This document shows positions 2,707 through 54,521 of a stretch of DNA of 64,000 nt, piece by piece (positions within the stretch are counted from its first letter, which is position 1; each line of letters opens with the position of its first letter). The notes below the pieces were generated by a model that made no database searches, was not told the DNA's origin, and was given only the letters and a program-made list of their open reading frames with translations. Location: IMG/VR virus record IMGVR_UViG_3300025410_000009; one strand, given 5' to 3'. The translations under genes and the position numbers were made by a program. This stretch comes from a virus (lineage: Duplodnaviria > Caudoviricetes).

Positions 2707-4374
2707 TTAACCGTAATAGGCCAAAATGTCAAAGTTTTGGATCCATACTAGGCTATCAGCAGTTTGTTCGGTCACTTTAGAATAGTCCAAAGTCCAAGCA
2801 GCTGATTTGTATTCACCTGCAGGCCAGTCGCTACCATCAGTAGCACCCGAATTTGGTGCAAAGATCCAAGCATCGTTAAACGCTGACATTGGCACTAACA
2901 GAGCACGGTGAGCAGTTAGCTTGGTCACAAAGTACAAAGATGAAGTGTAGTCCATGGCCAAAATAGCAATTTCGCCAGGATTTTGTGGCCAGTGGCCAAC
3001 CAACTGTGCTGACTGTTCAATTAGTGGACGATTTGCTACTTCTTCAGACAAAATAACAGCACCGTCGATTTGACCAGCCACAGTAGTAAGATCGCCATGG
3101 ACATTTTTCAATGTAAATGTGCTGGTACCATTTGTGGCAGTAACTTCGTAATAACAACCGCTATAATATCCGCCAATGGATCCTGCACCAGTCAAGTTAC
3201 CGTGAATAACCACATAGCTACCAACTGCAAATGTACCAGCTGGCTGCGGAATACTGATACTAAAAGCACCGTGTGTGTTTGTAGCAGTTAATACACCATA
3301 TTGTGCAGATGTCAAACTGGCAAATTGGCGTTCACGAGTTTTATATCTACGGCTCGAAACTTGCTTGATGATGTTAACTGGCAAGTAGGGAACTGCGCTT
3401 AACAATTCTACAGGGCTATAACCATAAACAGTGATAGCGCGAGATACATCAGTAAAACTATAACTTTCTGGAGCAACAGCATACACATCGTAACTGGCGT
3501 TGGCATCAGGAGTAAAGCTCACCAATGGGCCACCTGTAACAATGTAAGCACCTTCGCTTACAGCAATTTCATAGCCATCGCCTGGATTGGTAACATCAAA
3601 GCCCAATAGACCCAAGGTGATAGTGGCTTTAGCGCCAGTACCACTGCCAGTTATAGTATCCAACACACCGGCTGCACCAGTGCTAGGGAACACAGTATAG
3701 TTGCCAGGCACTGAAGGAGCACCAAAACTGTAAGCACCCCATACTAGATTGTCTAGTACCAAACCAGCACCGTTGTTGTCGATTGGGCCATCATGACATG
3801 TTGCTGTAAAACCGTTGGATCCACCTGCAATGGTAGTCGGGGGAGCACCAGTACCAGTCCATACACCTGGGTTGACAACCACAATACTTGTTGCGTGACC
3901 GCTGGTGCCAGCAGTGACTTTGACTGTTAAGGGTGTAGAGAAATTGCTGTGTGAATATGTGACTTGGTCACCGTTGGTGCCATTGCCAGGATCCAAATTG
4001 TTACCGCCGTTATTGATATGAGGAGTGCCAATGATAGTAATGGCGCTAACTGGGGCACGAGCTTTTGTGCTGGCTGTACCAGTATGCACTTCAACTACAT
4101 CACCCACTCGATATCCTGTACCATTTGCTGTTGTTGCAAACGACAAGGCTTGATAGTGTGCTACCACCTGAGCGGTGATACCATCAGCCATCTGTGGGGC
4201 TTCAACAACATACGTAGGTTGCACTGTCCAACCGTCGCCAGTACCGTTTACTGTAATGCTTTCAATACCAGCGCCGCCTAGACCAGCATCACCTGCTGTG
4301 TTGGCTGCACCGTAGTTGCCATCCCGACCTGGATTGCGACTACCAAAATATTTTTTACTTAAAGGACGTCCCAT
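2707..4374 (-). CDS. Gly/Thr-rich putative virion protein (555 aa)
   Basis: Start revised to MGRPLSKKYFG at 4374 (SD AAGGAGA); has its own late promoter and terminator; GxGY beta-repeat segments. Confidence 0.7.
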   Translation of the reverse strand: MGRPLSKKYFGSRNPGRDGNYGAANTAGDAGLGGAGIESITVNGTGDGWTVQPTYVVEAPQMADGITAQVVAHYQALSFATTANGTGYRVGDVVEVHTGTASTKARAPVSAITIIGTPHINNGGNNLDPGNGTNGDQVTYSHSNFSTPLTVKVTAGTSGHATSIVVVNPGVWTGTGAPPTTIAGGSNGFTATCHDGPIDNNGAGLVLDNLVWGAYSFGAPSVPGNYTVFPSTGAAGVLDTITGSGTGAKATITLGLLGFDVTNPGDGYEIAVSEGAYIVTGGPLVSFTPDANASYDVYAVAPESYSFTDVSRAITVYGYSPVELLSAVPYLPVNIIKQVSSRRYKTRERQFASLTSAQYGVLTATNTHGAFSISIPQPAGTFAVGSYVVIHGNLTGAGSIGGYYSGCYYEVTATNGTSTFTLKNVHGDLTTVAGQIDGAVILSEEVANRPLIEQSAQLVGHWPQNPGEIAILAMDYTSSLYFVTKLTAHRALLVPMSAFNDAWIFAPNSGATDGSDWPAGEYKSAAWTLDYSKVTEQTADSLVWIQNFDILAYYG

Positions 4375-4395
4375 TTTATTTTCTCCTTGTGAAAC

Positions 4396-4453
4396 ACGGC
4401 GTTCTAGGCCGTACGCGGTTGGATTTCCGCATAAAACTTGCACCATGCAAGTC
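4396..4453 (-). promoter_or_regulatory. Structured 5' leader with three tandem hairpins
   Basis: ACTTGCA/TGCAAGT (4436-4452), GCGG/CCGC (4415-4430) and ACGGC/GCCGT (4396-4412) lie between the late promoter and the SD. Confidence 0.55.
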
Positions 4454-4467: not shown

Positions 4468-4498
4468 TGAAAATTTGTTTTAGCATACCCAGTCATCC

Positions 4499-12935: not shown

Positions 12936-15900
12936 TTAATAGGAGTTATCAAGTAATCTTTGCTGTAAATCGCGGGTAGAAGATTGCATATCCACTTGAT
13001 CTCCAGCTTTGCTGACCAGCTGTCTTAGCAAATCCAGCTGTTGCTTCATTAAATCATTTAATTCTGCACCGGCAGCAGCAGATTTTACGTTGCGATCGCT
13101 GCCAGGTGCAACTATGCTTTGATTTGAGTCAGTGTCTCGGTTGTCTTTTGAACCACCAAATAATCCACCAGTTTTTATTTTAAAGTTATTATCAGACTGT
13201 ATTGAAGAAATAAGACCGTTGATGTCGGGTGTGTTAAGGCCTGGTTGACCGGTATTGTTAATACCATATGGCATTAAATCTTTAAAACTATCTTCTATAG
13301 TGGCACCAATACTCTTACTGGTATCATCTTTTTTATCGTTGGCTCCAACAAAATTATCAAGCATGCCACTGCCCAACACACCGCCAACTATGGTACCGAC
13401 TCCAGGCAATATCATTGACCCAAGTGCTGCGCCAATGGCTGCATTACCCATTGTATCAAGCACGCTGGGTCGTTCTTTGTTTTTGTCGGCTGCTTGGTTA
13501 GCTGTCATTTGATCAACTATTTTTTGATTTTGATCAAATAATCCACTAGTACCCAGCATCTTGCCAAGATCCAATTTGGAGGTGCCGAATCCCATATCTT
13601 TAAAAGCACGCCCTAGATCGTTATTGGATTTTACGAGTTCGCTAGTGGAGCTTTCCCATACGCCCATGTCCGGGCCGTTATCTTTAGTATCCTGTGTTAA
13701 CCCGCCCAGCAAGCCGCCAAGCGCAGTACCAATGCCAGGAAGTATCGCAGTACCAATTGCAGCGCCCATTGCAGCACCGCCCCAATTGGTTGATTTAGAG
13801 TCGTTGGATTGACCCATGCTGTTGCGAGTAAAATCGCCCATGTCCAATTTAACTGGAATAGTCTTGCCGTCAGGTAAAGGCACTATGGCTTCAGTACCGT
13901 GCAACAATTGCTGATAACCCGAGGTGGGACCAGTACTGACACCGCCCATGGCATAGCCTTCTTCTTTTTTCCCAGATGTCCAGTTACTGAATTTGTCAAC
14001 ACCTTTACCAATGGCGCCGCCAATTGCGTCACCCACTGCGCCAGCGGTTAATCCACCGAGTATTGTACCTGCTATACCACCAAGTTCGGTGCCAATTACA
14101 GTCCCAACACCGGGAGCAATAGCTGTACCAATTGCGCCACCAATTACTTCACCAAAACCTAAACCCACTGCACTACCAGCAATATCACCAGTGATACCAC
14201 CAGCGGTTGATCCAAATTCTTCTTCTTTACCTTTTTTCTTGGTACCTAACCCCATATCGTTGAGCATGTCCTGCACTGCGCCCAGCATCTCTTTAGATAC
14301 TTCGGCAAATTTTGCAATAGCCGGCGTTAATTCTTTTTCTAATGCCAGTTTTAAATCTTGTGCTGCCTGCTCAGCTGATAGTACACCATCGGTTAATTTA
14401 TCGTTAGTTTCTTTTTGTTTTTTTGCAGCTTCCTGTGCACTCTTTACTGACTCTTCAGTGACTTTATCAGTATTGTCAACTACTCCGCTAATTCCTCGAT
14501 TTAGATCTTCTAATCCACCGGCACCGGCCATGCCTGCAATACCTATGTCATTGAGATTCCCAAAGTTTGCACGCATCTTGTCATTGGTTTTACCCTGCAG
14601 ACGTTGTGCTTCGTCAACTGAGAATTGCCCGCTTTTTGCTAAATCCACCATGCCGTCGATTTGTTCAGACATACCCGGCAATTGTTGCATTAAAATATTG
14701 GCATTTTTATCAACCACATTACCCATGGTTAGTTTTTCCATGAACGCTTTTTTACTAGTTTCGTCCATGGTGTTCATGCTCTGTATTATTTTATTCATTA
14801 CACCGGGCTGTTTCTTTTCCAATTCCTGCAATTTGTTTCGGAACGCCACCTGTGTTGCAGCCTTGCGGTTTTCTTCCATTTTACGTTTTGCATCTTCGCC
14901 GGTTATTGCTGCAATAGTACGTAGATTAGTGGCATATGATGCAGTTTCTTGAGCAATTTGTTTATCGCTCATGTTTTTCAACTGGTTGCCTTTACGCAAA
15001 TCTGCCATGACTTCAGCTGTTAATGCTGCTTGATCTTCAAAACTGTACCCCAGCTGTAGCATTTCTCGCTGCAATGATTTGCCGCTGGATCCTATTAATT
15101 TTGACGATTCAGCACTGACCGCACCCATCTTGCGTGAAGCCTCACCAACACCCAAACCGCTTTCTGCTAGAGTACTTGAGTTAGCCGACACCACTTTTGA
15201 GAATTGTTCGACAGTTAAACCGGCACTGTTTGCTGCTTGCCGCATACCAGTCATGCCATTGGCAAACAAGGCTCCAGACGAACTCATGCTATTGAAAGCA
15301 TTGACTGTTTTTTCTACTTCCTTGGATAAAACCTCGATGCCAAATTTGGCCAGTTTGCTTGCCCCGCCAGCAAACGATTGTAGAGCGCCACCAAATAGAT
15401 CAAGTGCAATACCTGCGTAGCCAGCTTTGCCTTTAAGGTGCGACATGGCACTGCCAACACCTTGCATGGCTCCACCAAGCATGCCAGCTGATCCGGCTGC
15501 AAGATCAACTGCACCATTCATTAGCGTGCTACTTAAATCAGTGGAGCTGGCACCCGATTGTAGGGATTTTACAAAACTACCGGTAGTGGCAGAAATCTGA
15601 CTAACAGCAGTTTTACTAAAGGTTTTAATAAACTCAGACGTAGCTTGCTGAGTTTGCACCAATCTTAAATTTGATGCTACGGTTTCTCGTTGTTTTTGTA
15701 ATGCTTCCTTGTGGCTGTCGTCGGTTGTGTTTTTAATTGCAGCATCAAGATCTTTAAGACTTTTATTAAAGTCTTTCATGGTGTCGGCAAAATTCTCGCG
15801 ACCTATAGAAGTAAAGCCCTTGATGAATTTGCCCATTACACCATCGCTAGCGGCCTGCTTGATTTTGGCGTTTAATTCGAGCGTGGATCGGTATTGTTCT

Positions 15901-16055
15901 CGTTTGGCTAGATCTTCTTTCTTTTGCTGGGCTTGTCGTGCGGCAGCCGATTGATTTTCTTTTTTATACTGTTTTAAAATTTCAGCCAGTTCAGGTTTCA
16001 ATTTAGCAAACAGCTCAATCACAGCATTGAGATCTTGGTCATTCATTTCAGCCAT
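12936..16055 (-). CDS. Tape-measure-like protein
   Basis: 1039 aa, Ala/Gly/Lys-rich and helical; three glycine-zipper segments; YAMGG...HGTEAIVPLPDG motif common near TMP C-termini. Confidence 0.75.
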   Translation of the reverse strand: MAEMNDQDLNAVIELFAKLKPELAEILKQYKKENQSAAARQAQQKKEDLAKREQYRSTLELNAKIKQAASDGVMGKFIKGFTSIGRENFADTMKDFNKSLKDLDAAIKNTTDDSHKEALQKQRETVASNLRLVQTQQATSEFIKTFSKTAVSQISATTGSFVKSLQSGASSTDLSSTLMNGAVDLAAGSAGMLGGAMQGVGSAMSHLKGKAGYAGIALDLFGGALQSFAGGASKLAKFGIEVLSKEVEKTVNAFNSMSSSGALFANGMTGMRQAANSAGLTVEQFSKVVSANSSTLAESGLGVGEASRKMGAVSAESSKLIGSSGKSLQREMLQLGYSFEDQAALTAEVMADLRKGNQLKNMSDKQIAQETASYATNLRTIAAITGEDAKRKMEENRKAATQVAFRNKLQELEKKQPGVMNKIIQSMNTMDETSKKAFMEKLTMGNVVDKNANILMQQLPGMSEQIDGMVDLAKSGQFSVDEAQRLQGKTNDKMRANFGNLNDIGIAGMAGAGGLEDLNRGISGVVDNTDKVTEESVKSAQEAAKKQKETNDKLTDGVLSAEQAAQDLKLALEKELTPAIAKFAEVSKEMLGAVQDMLNDMGLGTKKKGKEEEFGSTAGGITGDIAGSAVGLGFGEVIGGAIGTAIAPGVGTVIGTELGGIAGTILGGLTAGAVGDAIGGAIGKGVDKFSNWTSGKKEEGYAMGGVSTGPTSGYQQLLHGTEAIVPLPDGKTIPVKLDMGDFTRNSMGQSNDSKSTNWGGAAMGAAIGTAILPGIGTALGGLLGGLTQDTKDNGPDMGVWESSTSELVKSNNDLGRAFKDMGFGTSKLDLGKMLGTSGLFDQNQKIVDQMTANQAADKNKERPSVLDTMGNAAIGAALGSMILPGVGTIVGGVLGSGMLDNFVGANDKKDDTSKSIGATIEDSFKDLMPYGINNTGQPGLNTPDINGLISSIQSDNNFKIKTGGLFGGSKDNRDTDSNQSIVAPGSDRNVKSAAAGAELNDLMKQQLDLLRQLVSKAGDQVDMQSSTRDLQQRLLDNSY

Positions 16056-16064
16056 GTTTTTTTA

Positions 16065-16095
16065 CCATAAATAAGTACATATCAATTATTTATGG
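16065..16095. promoter_or_regulatory. Inverted pair of late promoters (TAAATA + at 16068-16073, - at 16087-16092)
   Basis: Perfect 10-bp inverted repeat CCATAAATAA-N11-TTATTTATGG between divergent genes. Confidence 0.7.
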
Positions 16096-16104
16096 AGATC
16101 AAAT

Positions 16105-16944
16105 ATGGCTTCAAACCCCAACAATCCCTTGGCCAAACACTTCAGACAGCCAGCAATTTACCTTAAACTGCCCAGCGGCGGCACCTATTGGCCCGACGAT
16201 GCCATAAAGTTGCCCTTGAACGGCGAAGTTGCCATCTACCCAATGACCACCAAAGATGAAATCACACTAAAGACGCCAGACGCACTCATGAACGGTGCTG
16301 GTGTAATCAGTGTGATTCAAAGCTGCTGCCCTGATATCTTAGACGCTTGGCGCATGCCCAGTATTGATGTTGATGCTGTCATAATTGCCATTAGAATTGC
16401 CAGCTTTGGGCATGAGATGCCGTTCAACGCTAGATGCCCAGCATGCGACAACTTTGATGACTATGCTATCGATTTGCGTATGGTGTTAGACAACATTAGA
16501 ATGCCCAGTTACGATGATCCAGTTGCAGTTGACTCCCTAAAGATCAAACTGTATCCACAGCCGTATTTTAGTCTAAACAAAACCAATCAAGCTCAGTTTG
16601 AAGAACAAAAGCTATTACAAGCCATTGAAAACACCAGCATGGACGAGACTGAACGCAGCGTAATGATCAATGATCAAATGGCCAAAATTGTCAACATTGG
16701 GTTGCAAACACTGGTAGACAGCACCGAATACATCGAAACCGATGATGGCACACAGGTACGAGATAAAACTTTTATAAATGAATTCTATACAAATTCAAGT
16801 ACTACTGTCACAAAAGCAGTACAAGCCAAGCTAGCTAATTTGAACACAGAGGGTGCTGTCAAACCAGTACATGTCAATTGTGCCGAGTGCAGCAAACCGT
16901 TTGATATCCAAATCACGTTTGACTACGCAGCTTTTTTCGGTTAA
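16105..16944 (+). CDS. gp26: Baseplate hub assembly protein (T4 gp26-like) / tail chaperone
   Basis: NPLAKHFRQP..YLKLPSGG, PMTTKDEITLKTPDALMNG, two CxxC pairs (CPAC, CAEC); SD GGAG. Confidence 0.8.
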   Translation: MASNPNNPLAKHFRQPAIYLKLPSGGTYWPDDAIKLPLNGEVAIYPMTTKDEITLKTPDALMNGAGVISVIQSCCPDILDAWRMPSIDVDAVIIAIRIASFGHEMPFNARCPACDNFDDYAIDLRMVLDNIRMPSYDDPVAVDSLKIKLYPQPYFSLNKTNQAQFEEQKLLQAIENTSMDETERSVMINDQMAKIVNIGLQTLVDSTEYIETDDGTQVRDKTFINEFYTNSSTTVTKAVQAKLANLNTEGAVKPVHVNCAECSKPFDIQITFDYAAFFG

Positions 16945-16949
16945 GGCTT

Positions 16950-17168
16950 TTGACTCTTGATAATGAGGGTATCGTCAAGCTAATTGAGGGATACGACAAA
17001 GAGTCAAAAGCCTTACGAGACGAAGCACTAAGACTCAGCTGGTACATGCGGGGTGGACTCACCTATGATGATGCCATGATGTTGAGTCATGGCGAACGTG
17101 AAATCATTGGCAAAATAATCAAAGACAACATCGAAGTTACCAAGAAAACTGGTGTTCCTTTCTTCTAA
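16950..17168 (+). CDS. Short gp51-like ORF, probably the -1 frameshift extension of the upstream gene
   Basis: Only a TTG start with no SD; its frame is open from 16923 across the slippery T TTT TTC (16932-16938). Confidence 0.7.
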   Translation: MTLDNEGIVKLIEGYDKESKALRDEALRLSWYMRGGLTYDDAMMLSHGEREIIGKIIKDNIEVTKKTGVPFF

Positions 17169-17197
17169 GTCGTTATTGTCCTTTATAGTTCACCATC

Positions 17198-17600
17198 ATA
17201 TTAAGACTTGCAAGCAAGTCTGTTGTTTCGCTAGCGCTCACAACATTTTTTTAATATCTATTGACTTCAGTATCATCCAGATTAATTGGTCATAATTCAC
17301 CGTAAGCACGGTGAATTGATCTGGCATCATCCGAGTAGCACAGTCATCTATTCTAATGAGATTGCCTTGCGGCGCGGAGGCGGTTGACCGGTACCCCCTA
17401 CTCAAGCTTCACAAATCAACGGAACCCTAGTGATCCGGAATAGACCCAAATCCTATGAGCTGAGGTTGTATCTTTTTCACAGCGCCTCAATCATTTATTA
17501 CCTTAAGTTAGTAATTGTCTTTGGCATCCAAGATCCAGACCGGGTATTTCACCGTTCTTCAATGGAGCATGACCTAGCCATGCACAGCGCCTATGATGTA
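17198..17600 (-). ncRNA. Candidate large structured ncRNA downstream of the GIY-YIG gene
   Basis: About 430 nt without a credible gene. Stems include AATTCACCGT/ACGGTGAATT (10 bp), CCAGAT/ATCTGG, GAGTAG/CTACTC, GCC-GCAA-GGC, CGG-TCAA-CCG, TGAGG/CCTCA, ATTAC/GTAAT, GCATG/CATGC, GACTTG/CAAGTC. Confidence 0.6.
17221..17252 (+). terminator. Probable intrinsic terminator of the gp26 operon
   Basis: TGTTGT...ACAACA hairpin followed by T7. Confidence 0.65.
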
Positions 17601-53281: not shown

Positions 53282-54180
53282 ACAGCCATCCTTGCATCAA
53301 TTTTAGACCAGCTGGTGTAGCCGTCTAGGCGTATATCCGCCATGGTAAATTTAGTAATATCTCGAATTTCGGGGTTAAGCCAAAGTCGTGGGGCAGGTAA
53401 GGGTTCACGCCTTAATTGCTCTTTTACCTGCTCTATGTGATTCAAATATATATGGGCGTCGCCGAGTACGTGAACGAACTCGCCTACATCAAGATCGCAC
53501 ACTTGAGCGATCATGGCCGTTAGCAAACTGTAGCTGGCTATGTTAAAGGGTACACCCAAAAACATATCGCAGGACCTTTGATACATTTGACACGACAACC
53601 GATTACCGGCCACATAAAACTGAGCAAGAACATGACACGGTGGGAGAGCCATCTGATCTAACTCTCCAGGATTCCATGCTGATAAGATATGTCTTCGTCC
53701 GTATGGGTCCTGCTTAATGCCCTCAATCAGGGCCAACAACTGATCAACTTCTTTGTAAAAAGGATCAAACCAAGTCTTGCCGTAATCGTCGTCGATGTCA
53801 GCAGGTGCATTGGGCACATGTGTACGCCAGTGGCGCCATTGCACTCCATAAATCCTGCCTAAATCGCCTGAGTATTTAGCCTTACTGGCCCAATATGGCG
53901 CTGTGGCATTGTCGGACCAAATGGTTGTCTTGCTAGACTCGGCGCTACCATGTAAGATCTCTCGCAGCCGCTTTTCGTCCCCGGACCCTTCAATGAACCA
54001 CAGCAATTCTGAAACAACACTACGCCAGGCCAGTTGCTTGGTGGTAACTGCTGGGAAGCCTTGTTGCAAATCATATCTCTGTTGCCGACCAAACACACTG
54101 ATGGTACCAGTCCCGGTCCGATCGTCGCGTTGTTGGCCGTTGTCTAATACATCTTGCAACAATTCTAAATATTGTTTCAT
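53278..54180 (-). CDS. thyA: Thymidylate synthase
   Basis: DRTGTGT, MALPPCH, YQRSCDMFLGVPFNIASY, GDAHIYLNH; no intron. Confidence 0.97.
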   Translation of the reverse strand: MKQYLELLQDVLDNGQQRDDRTGTGTISVFGRQQRYDLQQGFPAVTTKQLAWRSVVSELLWFIEGSGDEKRLREILHGSAESSKTTIWSDNATAPYWASKAKYSGDLGRIYGVQWRHWRTHVPNAPADIDDDYGKTWFDPFYKEVDQLLALIEGIKQDPYGRRHILSAWNPGELDQMALPPCHVLAQFYVAGNRLSCQMYQRSCDMFLGVPFNIASYSLLTAMIAQVCDLDVGEFVHVLGDAHIYLNHIEQVKEQLRREPLPAPRLWLNPEIRDITKFTMADIRLDGYTSWSKIDARMAV

Positions 54181-54521
54181 AAGTCTTTTAAAAAGTTATC
54201 AGTTATCGGCTGTAACACTTTGGCCACATCATCAACACTGACATAAAAGTCAACATCTTGAATATACTGATCCAGTTGTTCAAGTTTGTCATTAAGGAAC
54301 TCTTGCACTTCAATCTCGGTATTGCCCGAGGACAACAATTCCTTGATGTCAATACTCACCTGAGTGCCGTCAATTAAATTGACTGTGAGTGATTCCAATA
54401 CACCGATTGGAACCTCAACTTTTTTGACACTCCTGATTATCTTTTCCCACTTGTCGCGGGAATTGACATTAAGCCGCCGGCGCTTTGGCTTTTTTGGTTT
54501 TGGCAGCTCTTGGTTTGACAT
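54177..54521 (-). CDS. Hypothetical protein
   Basis: 114 aa; ATGA-coupled to thyA. Confidence 0.7.
   Translation of the reverse strand: MSNQELPKPKKPKRRRLNVNSRDKWEKIIRSVKKVEVPIGVLESLTVNLIDGTQVSIDIKELLSSGNTEIEVQEFLNDKLEQLDQYIQDVDFYVSVDDVAKVLQPITDNFLKDL

What the first reader, a model, noticed from the sequence alone, without database searches (positions are those of the whole stretch)
16920..17168. Candidate programmed -1 frameshift fusing gp26-like and gp51-like ORFs (lambda G/GT-type chaperone logic in a T4-like phage)
Seen: ORF1 ends GCT TTT TTC GGT TAA, giving the X XXY YYZ heptamer T TTT TTC (16932-16938). The -1 frame opens just upstream (TGA at 16920) and runs into ORF2, which has only a TTG start and no SD. 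A possible TTGAC/GTCAA stem starts about 11 nt downstream. The predicted fusion is about 354 aa (278+76). The pair adjoins the tape-measure gene. Established: tail assembly chaperones of lambda (G/GT) and P2 (E/E', T-run slippery site) use this mechanism. Inference: what is normally annotated as two T4-type hub genes is a single frameshifted tail chaperone.
Basis: partly seen in the sequence, partly recalled or inferred. Interest (0 to 1): 0.68.

Follow-up and report, generated by a model that had tools for sequence, protein, structure and literature searches.

The report
Hairpin-backed frameshift in phage tail chaperone
One tail-assembly gene of this uncultured freshwater giant phage very probably makes a short and a long protein, because some ribosomes slip back one base; the slip has already been proposed in print for T4-like phages, and what this analysis adds is a conserved RNA stem just behind the slip site.

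Summary
Observation confirmed. ORF1 (16105-16944; PF12322, gp26/gp51 family) ends in T TTT TTC; the -1 frame gives a 354-aa fusion. All 192 distinct environmental homologs (30-70% identity) keep T TTT TTC G, a -1 ORF of 76-77 codons and no conserved start, while the ORF1 stop moves. So do 17 cultured jumbo phages (3 with T7) and 71 cyanophage-type loci. T4 has gp26 plus a naturally fused gp51 instead.

The mechanism is not new: Vladimirov, Gautam and Davidson 2022 (pmid 34826709; not held, seen only through citing papers) predicted chaperone frameshifts in T4-like phages. This scan found the site before in other genomes.

The real structure is a 17-bp long-range helix (16942-16958 with 16999-17015, z -4.1). 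Its conserved core starts 6 nt after the heptamer, shows repeated compensatory changes and recurs in Atu_ph07 and Phosso, but not in enterobacterial Rak2-like phages. The tape-measure-like gene is adjacent but divergent. ORF2 is gp51-like by position, barely by sequence.

Frameshifting, the stem's stimulatory role and chaperone function remain inferred; no RNA or protein data exist here.

The parts
16105..16944 (+). ORF1, short form (TAC-N candidate), 279 aa, gp26/gp51 family with two CxxC pairs
   Evidence: PF12322 E 7e-14; phrog_150 E 1e-16; invariant C111/C114/C259/C262 and F277/F278; predicted fold matches T4-type hub assembly proteins in BFVD
16932..16938 (+). slippery heptamer T TTT TTC, followed by an invariant G at 16939
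   Evidence: 192/192 distinct homologs; 14 TTTTTTC and 3 TTTTTTT among 17 cultured jumbo phages
16938..17168 (+). -1 frame C-terminal extension (TAC-C candidate), 76 aa after the slip; long form 354 aa
   Evidence: length 76-77 in all 192; conserved RxRLL directly after the slip, upstream of any start; helical model pLDDT 88
16942..16958 (+). 5' arm of the long-range stem (conserved core 16945-16952); covers the ORF1 stop and the TTG at 16950
   Evidence: MFE -32.6 kcal/mol, z -4.1; covariation
16999..17015 (+). 3' arm of the long-range stem (conserved core 17005-17012)
16969..16994 (+). inner hairpin inside the loop; position not conserved
   Evidence: weak diagonals
16066..16094 (.). back-to-back CATAAATA late-promoter-like boxes (plus at 16066, minus at 16094) for ORF1 and the tape-measure-like gene
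   Evidence: both boxes in 36 of 45 homologs; function inferred from the T4 late promoter (own knowledge)
12936..16055 (-). probable tape measure protein, 1039 aa, divergent from ORF1
   Evidence: phrog_167 E 4e-8, phrog_794 E 3e-6; divergent ORF over 400 aa in 45/45 homologs; RaK2 counterpart annotated as similar to a tape measure protein

Best explanation
A programmed -1 ribosomal frameshift makes two tail assembly chaperones from one late gene. Most ribosomes stop at TAA 16942 (279 aa). A minority, paused by a stem whose conserved core begins 6 nt after the heptamer, slip by tandem re-pairing of two tRNA-Phe from UUU UUC onto UUU UUU and add 76 residues (354 aa). By analogy with lambda gpG/gpGT, the short form coats the tape measure and the long form links it to tail tube assembly, at a fixed ratio. 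Shown: the conserved signal, frame and stem. Inferred: the slip itself (about 0.92), the stem acting as stimulator (about 0.65), tape-measure chaperone role (about 0.75).
For: 192/192 environmental homologs keep T TTT TTC G in frame and a -1 ORF of 76-77 codons while the ORF1 stop lies 1-6 codons downstream; 39 have no ATG/GTG/TTG in the first 25 codons of that frame, yet the first residues are conserved. No SD before the first start in 43 of 44. 17/17 cultured jumbo phages and 71 cyanophage-type loci agree. T4 has no such overlap but has gp26 plus gp51 = phrog_150 + phrog_634. Stem: mean z -3.9 against synonymous-codon shuffles versus -0.1 to -0.5 in six control windows; the three top covarying pairs of 3741 lie on the helix; 9 and 8 parsimony double changes at 16949/17008 and 16952/17005; same helix in Atu_ph07 (z -6.5) and Phosso (z -3.6) at about 30% protein identity. 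Spacer fits the usual 5-9 nt (PMC5009743). In the virion proteome of phage CBB the divergent gene product CBB_251 is listed and the ORF1 homolog CBB_250 is not (PMC5259590).
Against: No fusion peptide, reporter or ribosome data. Some relatives have a start near the junction: ATG within 8 codons in 22/192 and in 52/71 cyanophage-type loci; ATGA/TAATG overlaps in Atu_ph07, Phosso, 121Q, BF, Yen9-04, XbC2. The long stem is missing in enterobacterial Rak2-like phages and weak in about 30% of the clade (52 of 178 form 5 or fewer of 8 core pairs), so it is not required everywhere. On well-supported branches only about 4 independent concordant changes per pair were counted, p 0.125. The gene is not upstream of and co-oriented with the tape measure, and in Atu_ph07 not beside it. 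A review notes genetic support for gp26 being in the T4 hub (PMC3004832).
Confidence: 0.85

Rival explanations
1. Two separate genes: ORF2 is translated on its own by re-initiation or coupling at a TTG/ATG near the ORF1 stop, and the T run only encodes a required Phe-Phe.
For: TTG 16950 lies 5 nt after the stop; several relatives have ATGA/TAATG overlaps; F277/F278 are invariant.
Against: Phe-Phe does not need TTT-TTC or a T before it, yet 192/192 have it; 73 have no start in the first 13 codons and 39 none in the first 25; the TTG is buried in the stem. It could be a secondary route in some phages.
Confidence: 0.05
2. The frameshift is real but the products are baseplate-hub assembly factors (classical gp26/gp51 role) and do not bind the tape measure as lambda G/GT do.
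For: T4 gp26 and gp51 are listed as hub assembly chaperones (PMC3004832); the gene is divergent from the tape measure.
Against: T4's tape measure gp29 is itself a hub component, so the two readings overlap; short/long architecture and adjacency to a tape-measure-like gene in 45/45 homologs.
Confidence: 0.2
3. The stem is not a frameshift stimulator: it hides the TTG to block independent ORF2 initiation, or stabilises the mRNA.
For: The 5' arm covers the ORF1 stop and TTG 16950; phages without it keep the heptamer.
Against: The core starts at a fixed 6 nt from the heptamer whether or not a start codon lies in it, the usual stimulator distance.
Confidence: 0.25
4. The -1 frame is reached by transcriptional slippage (an added U in the T run), not by the ribosome.
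For: Six T in a row; three cultured relatives have seven or more.
Against: Six is short for polymerase slippage (own knowledge); the run is locked to the codon phase; a stem 3' of the run is not yet transcribed when polymerase is on it (inference).
Confidence: 0.04
5. Assembly error or decaying gene: an indel split one ORF.
For: Homopolymer runs are error-prone (general knowledge).
Against: Same split in 280 other loci; no indel in contigs of four other runs.
Confidence: 0.01

Closest known systems
Predicted TAC genes of T4-like phages (Vladimirov, Gautam, Davidson 2022, Virology 566:9, pmid 34826709; known here only from its title and from paraphrases in PMC12846349 and PMC10885494)
   Same: poly-T -1 slip site at the end of a TAC-N gene in T4-like phages; some members encode short and long forms as two genes
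   Different: I could not check whether this jumbo clade or any stem was covered; here the gene is divergent from the tape measure and a covarying long-range stem follows the site
Lambda gpG/gpGT (PMC5009743)
   Same: -1 shift near the 3' end gives a short form and a C-terminally extended form in tail assembly
   Different: no sequence similarity was tested or found; lambda G is much shorter and lies before the tape measure in one operon (own knowledge); ratio 30:1 is measured there, unknown here
P2 E/E+E' (PMC3091744)
   Same: six-T slip run, contractile tail
   Different: TTTTTTG rather than TTTTTTC; no downstream hairpin in P2 or three relatives, such structure described as rare
T4 gp26 and gp51 (PF12322, phrog_150, phrog_634)
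   Same: ORF1 is in the same family; gp51 has the N+C architecture of the predicted long form
   Different: T4 uses two divergent genes and no frameshift; ORF2 shows only trace similarity to phrog_634
Cyanophage gp26 + small 'gp51' (P-SSM4, Kyanoviridae)
   Same: same T TTT TTC G and -1 phase
   Different: co-oriented with the downstream long gene; 58-68 aa extension; a short local hairpin instead of the long stem; often an ATG near the junction

Membership tests
G/GT-type frameshifted tail assembly chaperone pair | two overlapping ORFs, second in the -1 frame, joined by a conserved slippery site | tested here: met
G/GT-type frameshifted tail assembly chaperone pair | second ORF lacks its own conserved start and SD | tested here: met
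   exceptions with ATG overlaps in some relatives
G/GT-type frameshifted tail assembly chaperone pair | located between major tail gene and tape measure gene, co-oriented | tested here: not met
   adjacent to the tape-measure-like gene but head-to-head; flanked on the other side by an ncRNA, GIY-YIG gene and gp46
G/GT-type frameshifted tail assembly chaperone pair | products absent from the mature virion | tested here: inconclusive
   homolog not listed in the CBB virion proteome and not MS-tagged in PA5oct; absence from MS lists is weak, and these are distant relatives
G/GT-type frameshifted tail assembly chaperone pair | TAC-N fold of solved chaperones | tested here: inconclusive
   PDB-wide search returned only generic helical hairpins, Z 8.4 or less
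G/GT-type frameshifted tail assembly chaperone pair | fusion protein made at a low fixed ratio; binds tape measure and tail tube protein | not testable with these tools
   needs MS, reporter and binding assays
T4 gp26/gp51 family (PF12322, phrog_150) | profile match above cut-off for ORF1 | tested here: met
   52.4 bits against cut-off 24.5; phrog_150; fold matches
gp51 C-terminal domain (phrog_634) | profile match for ORF2 | tested here: inconclusive
   no hit for 32 members; hhalign E 0.016 over 27 columns, best single homolog E 2e-4 against a cyanophage profile
Structure-stimulated -1 ribosomal frameshift | X XXY YYZ heptamer with a 3' structure 5-9 nt downstream | tested here: met
   core stem at 6 nt with covariation; spacer range from PMC5009743
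Structure-stimulated -1 ribosomal frameshift | structure raises frameshift efficiency | not testable with these tools
   needs a reporter with disrupting and compensating changes

The most novel reading that the evidence does not exclude
The long-loop stem is a tunable element rather than a fixed roadblock: because its arms are about 55 nt apart and enclose a variable inner hairpin, a trailing ribosome or a protein (for example the chaperone itself) could open or hold it and so adjust the short:long ratio during infection. That would be a regulated tail-chaperone frameshift, gained in one jumbo-phage lineage. Nothing here shows regulation.
Probability: 0.08. Interest if true: 0.7.

Novelty: new member of a known kind. 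Interest (0 to 1): 0.32.

Why it matters
It corrects annotation across a large group of giant phages: the small 'hypothetical' or unannotated ORF after the gp26-like gene is the second half of one protein. It supports the published but, as far as I could find, untested proposal that gp26/gp51 are the G/GT pair of T4-like phages. The covarying stem, shared with two cultured phages (Atu_ph07, Phosso) and absent from Rak2-like ones, gives a ready natural comparison for how a tail-chaperone ratio is set; downstream structure is described as rare at such sites.

Tried and rejected
RNAalifold on 31 junctions gave no consensus structure, because flanking pairs and some lineages break; the named helix was then supported by pair counts. 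Rfam: no family for the stem. ORF2: no Pfam or PHROG family, no clear fold match, no match to T4 or P-SSM4 gp51 singly. ORF1 against the PDB: only generic helical hairpins. Homo-oligomer prediction of ORF1, 3 copies: no answer, score 0.22. No RNA holder listed, so expression and transcriptional slippage were not tested. No SD-like sequence upstream of the heptamer is visible in the alignment. Vladimirov 2022, Christie 2002 and Xu 2013 are not held. No paper held all of gp26, gp51, frameshift and jumbo phage. The fusion was not folded, as it cannot be given by reference.

Full report
Setting. The window lies in a 210-kb contig of 45% GC, held by freshwater metagenomes. It carries T4-type portal, late sigma factor and baseplate genes. 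The closest cultured relatives of ORF1 are jumbo phages Phosso, Atu_ph07 and the Rak2-like group at 24-33% identity.

Observation. ORF1 (16105-16944, 279 aa) ends GCT TTT TTC GGT TAA, so T TTT TTC sits at 16932-38 in frame. The -1 frame is open from 16923 to 17168; its only early start is TTG 16950, with no SD. Tandem slippage gives 278 + 76 = 354 aa. Contigs from four other runs cover the slip site without differences. Within one genome such a pattern arises in 4 of 224 ORFs, so the single case proves little.

Conservation. Four scans gave 274 usable loci and 192 distinct junctions, with ORF1 identity 30-70%. All have T TTT TTC followed by G, all have the ORF2 homolog in the -1 frame, and the frame is 76 or 77 codons long. 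The ORF1 stop lies 1, 2, 3, 4 or 6 codons later. The codon before Phe-Phe takes eight forms, all ending in T, and Phe codons elsewhere are 1263 TTT to 439 TTC. Starts are not conserved: 73 have none in the first 13 codons and 39 none in the first 25, yet the residues right after the slip are conserved. All 17 cultured jumbo phages examined keep the site and phase; in RaK2, PA5oct and RsoM2USA the second ORF is not annotated. Cyanophage P-SSM4 and 71 related loci have the same heptamer before their small 'gp51'. Against this, an ATG lies near the junction in 22 of 192, in 52 of 71 cyanophage-type loci, and overlaps the stop in several cultured phages, so some free second domain may be made there.

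Protein identity. ORF1 belongs to PF12322 / phrog_150, aligns weakly to T4 gp26, the N-part of T4 gp51 and P-SSM4 gp26, and its model (pLDDT 86) matches T4-type hub assembly proteins. T4 gp51 is phrog_150 plus a C-terminal phrog_634, the family of the small cyanophage 'gp51': T4 encodes the long form as its own gene. ORF2 has no family hit and only trace similarity to that domain, so 'gp51-like' rests on position and size. T4 gp26 and gp51 are listed as hub assembly chaperones and the tape measure gp29 is a hub part (PMC3004832). In phage CBB the divergent neighbour is in the virion list and the ORF1 homolog is not (PMC5259590).

The stem. Folding further downstream shows a perfect 17-bp helix, 16942-58 with 16999-17015, -32.6 kcal/mol, z -4.1. 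In 180 homologs, aligned without gaps from the heptamer, one pairing register dominates (8.1 expected pairs against 1.7 for the next), the core runs from +7 to +14, and the three highest covariation scores lie on it, with G-C/A-T and T-A/C-G swaps. Against synonymous-codon shuffles the mean z is -3.9 there and -0.1 to -0.5 in six control windows. On an ORF1 tree, parsimony gives 9 and 8 double Watson-Crick changes for the two main pairs, ranks 1 and joint 2 of 3741 column pairs. The stricter count on supported branches gives about 4 concordant and 0-0.2 discordant changes per pair, not significant alone. 114 of 178 form all 8 core pairs. Atu_ph07 and Phosso have the same helix; RaK2, GAP32, BF, Yen9-04, 7t3 and XbC2 do not. 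Cyanophage-type loci favour a short local hairpin. A 6-nt spacer fits the usual 5-9 nt (PMC5009743); P2 and relatives lack such structure and it is called rare (PMC3091744). That the stem stimulates the slip is an inference.

Gene order. The probable tape measure gene (12936-16055) is on the opposite strand, 49 bp away, with back-to-back CATAAATA boxes. A long divergent ORF is present in 45 of 45 homologs with enough flank and both boxes in 36. This differs from the lambda order.

Prior knowledge. Lambda G/GT and its wide conservation 'except T4' are reviewed in PMC5009743. [quoted passage not shown] I could not read the paper, so coverage of this clade is unknown. Earlier notes of this scan report the same site in at least 14 other genomes, one with an RNA helix; two say no published report was found, which these citations contradict.

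Verdict. A real, very probably functional -1 frameshift of a known kind. The added value is the covarying long-range stem and its patchy distribution. Interest 0.32.

Noticed in passing
window 17190-17600, minus strand: ORF-free stretch of about 410 nt after the small GIY-YIG gene (17604-18065). Folds with z -3.2, no Rfam hit, homologs in 206 fetched loci, 145 with the GIY-YIG gene in the flank, 15 pairs with double changes. A structured ncRNA; already followed up in other notes of this scan.
   Followed up: partly
window 16066-16094 and 4469-4498: Back-to-back CATAAATA late-promoter-like boxes between divergent gene pairs, twice in the window.
   Followed up: partly
window 4372-4452, minus strand: Rfam freshwater-2 RNA, 71.7 bits, in the leader of the ORF at 2707-4446.
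   Followed up: no
window 16939: The base after the heptamer is G in 192/192 homologs, giving Arg as first -1 residue; not universal (PA5oct, Xoo-sp13, RAS14 have A). Protein or recoding constraint not resolved.
   Followed up: no
L317-L396 (cyanophage-type loci): A short hairpin about +12 to +30 after the same heptamer and an in-frame ATG in 52 of 71: possibly a different stimulator or a real second start.
   Followed up: partly
L069 707-1582 (Yersinia phage fHe-Yen9-04): The ORF1 homolog is annotated as a heavy-metal transporting ATPase, evidently wrongly.
   Followed up: no
window about 54190, minus strand: T TTA AAA near the end of ORF 54177-54521 with a long open -1 frame, probably just an overlap with the next gene.
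   Followed up: no
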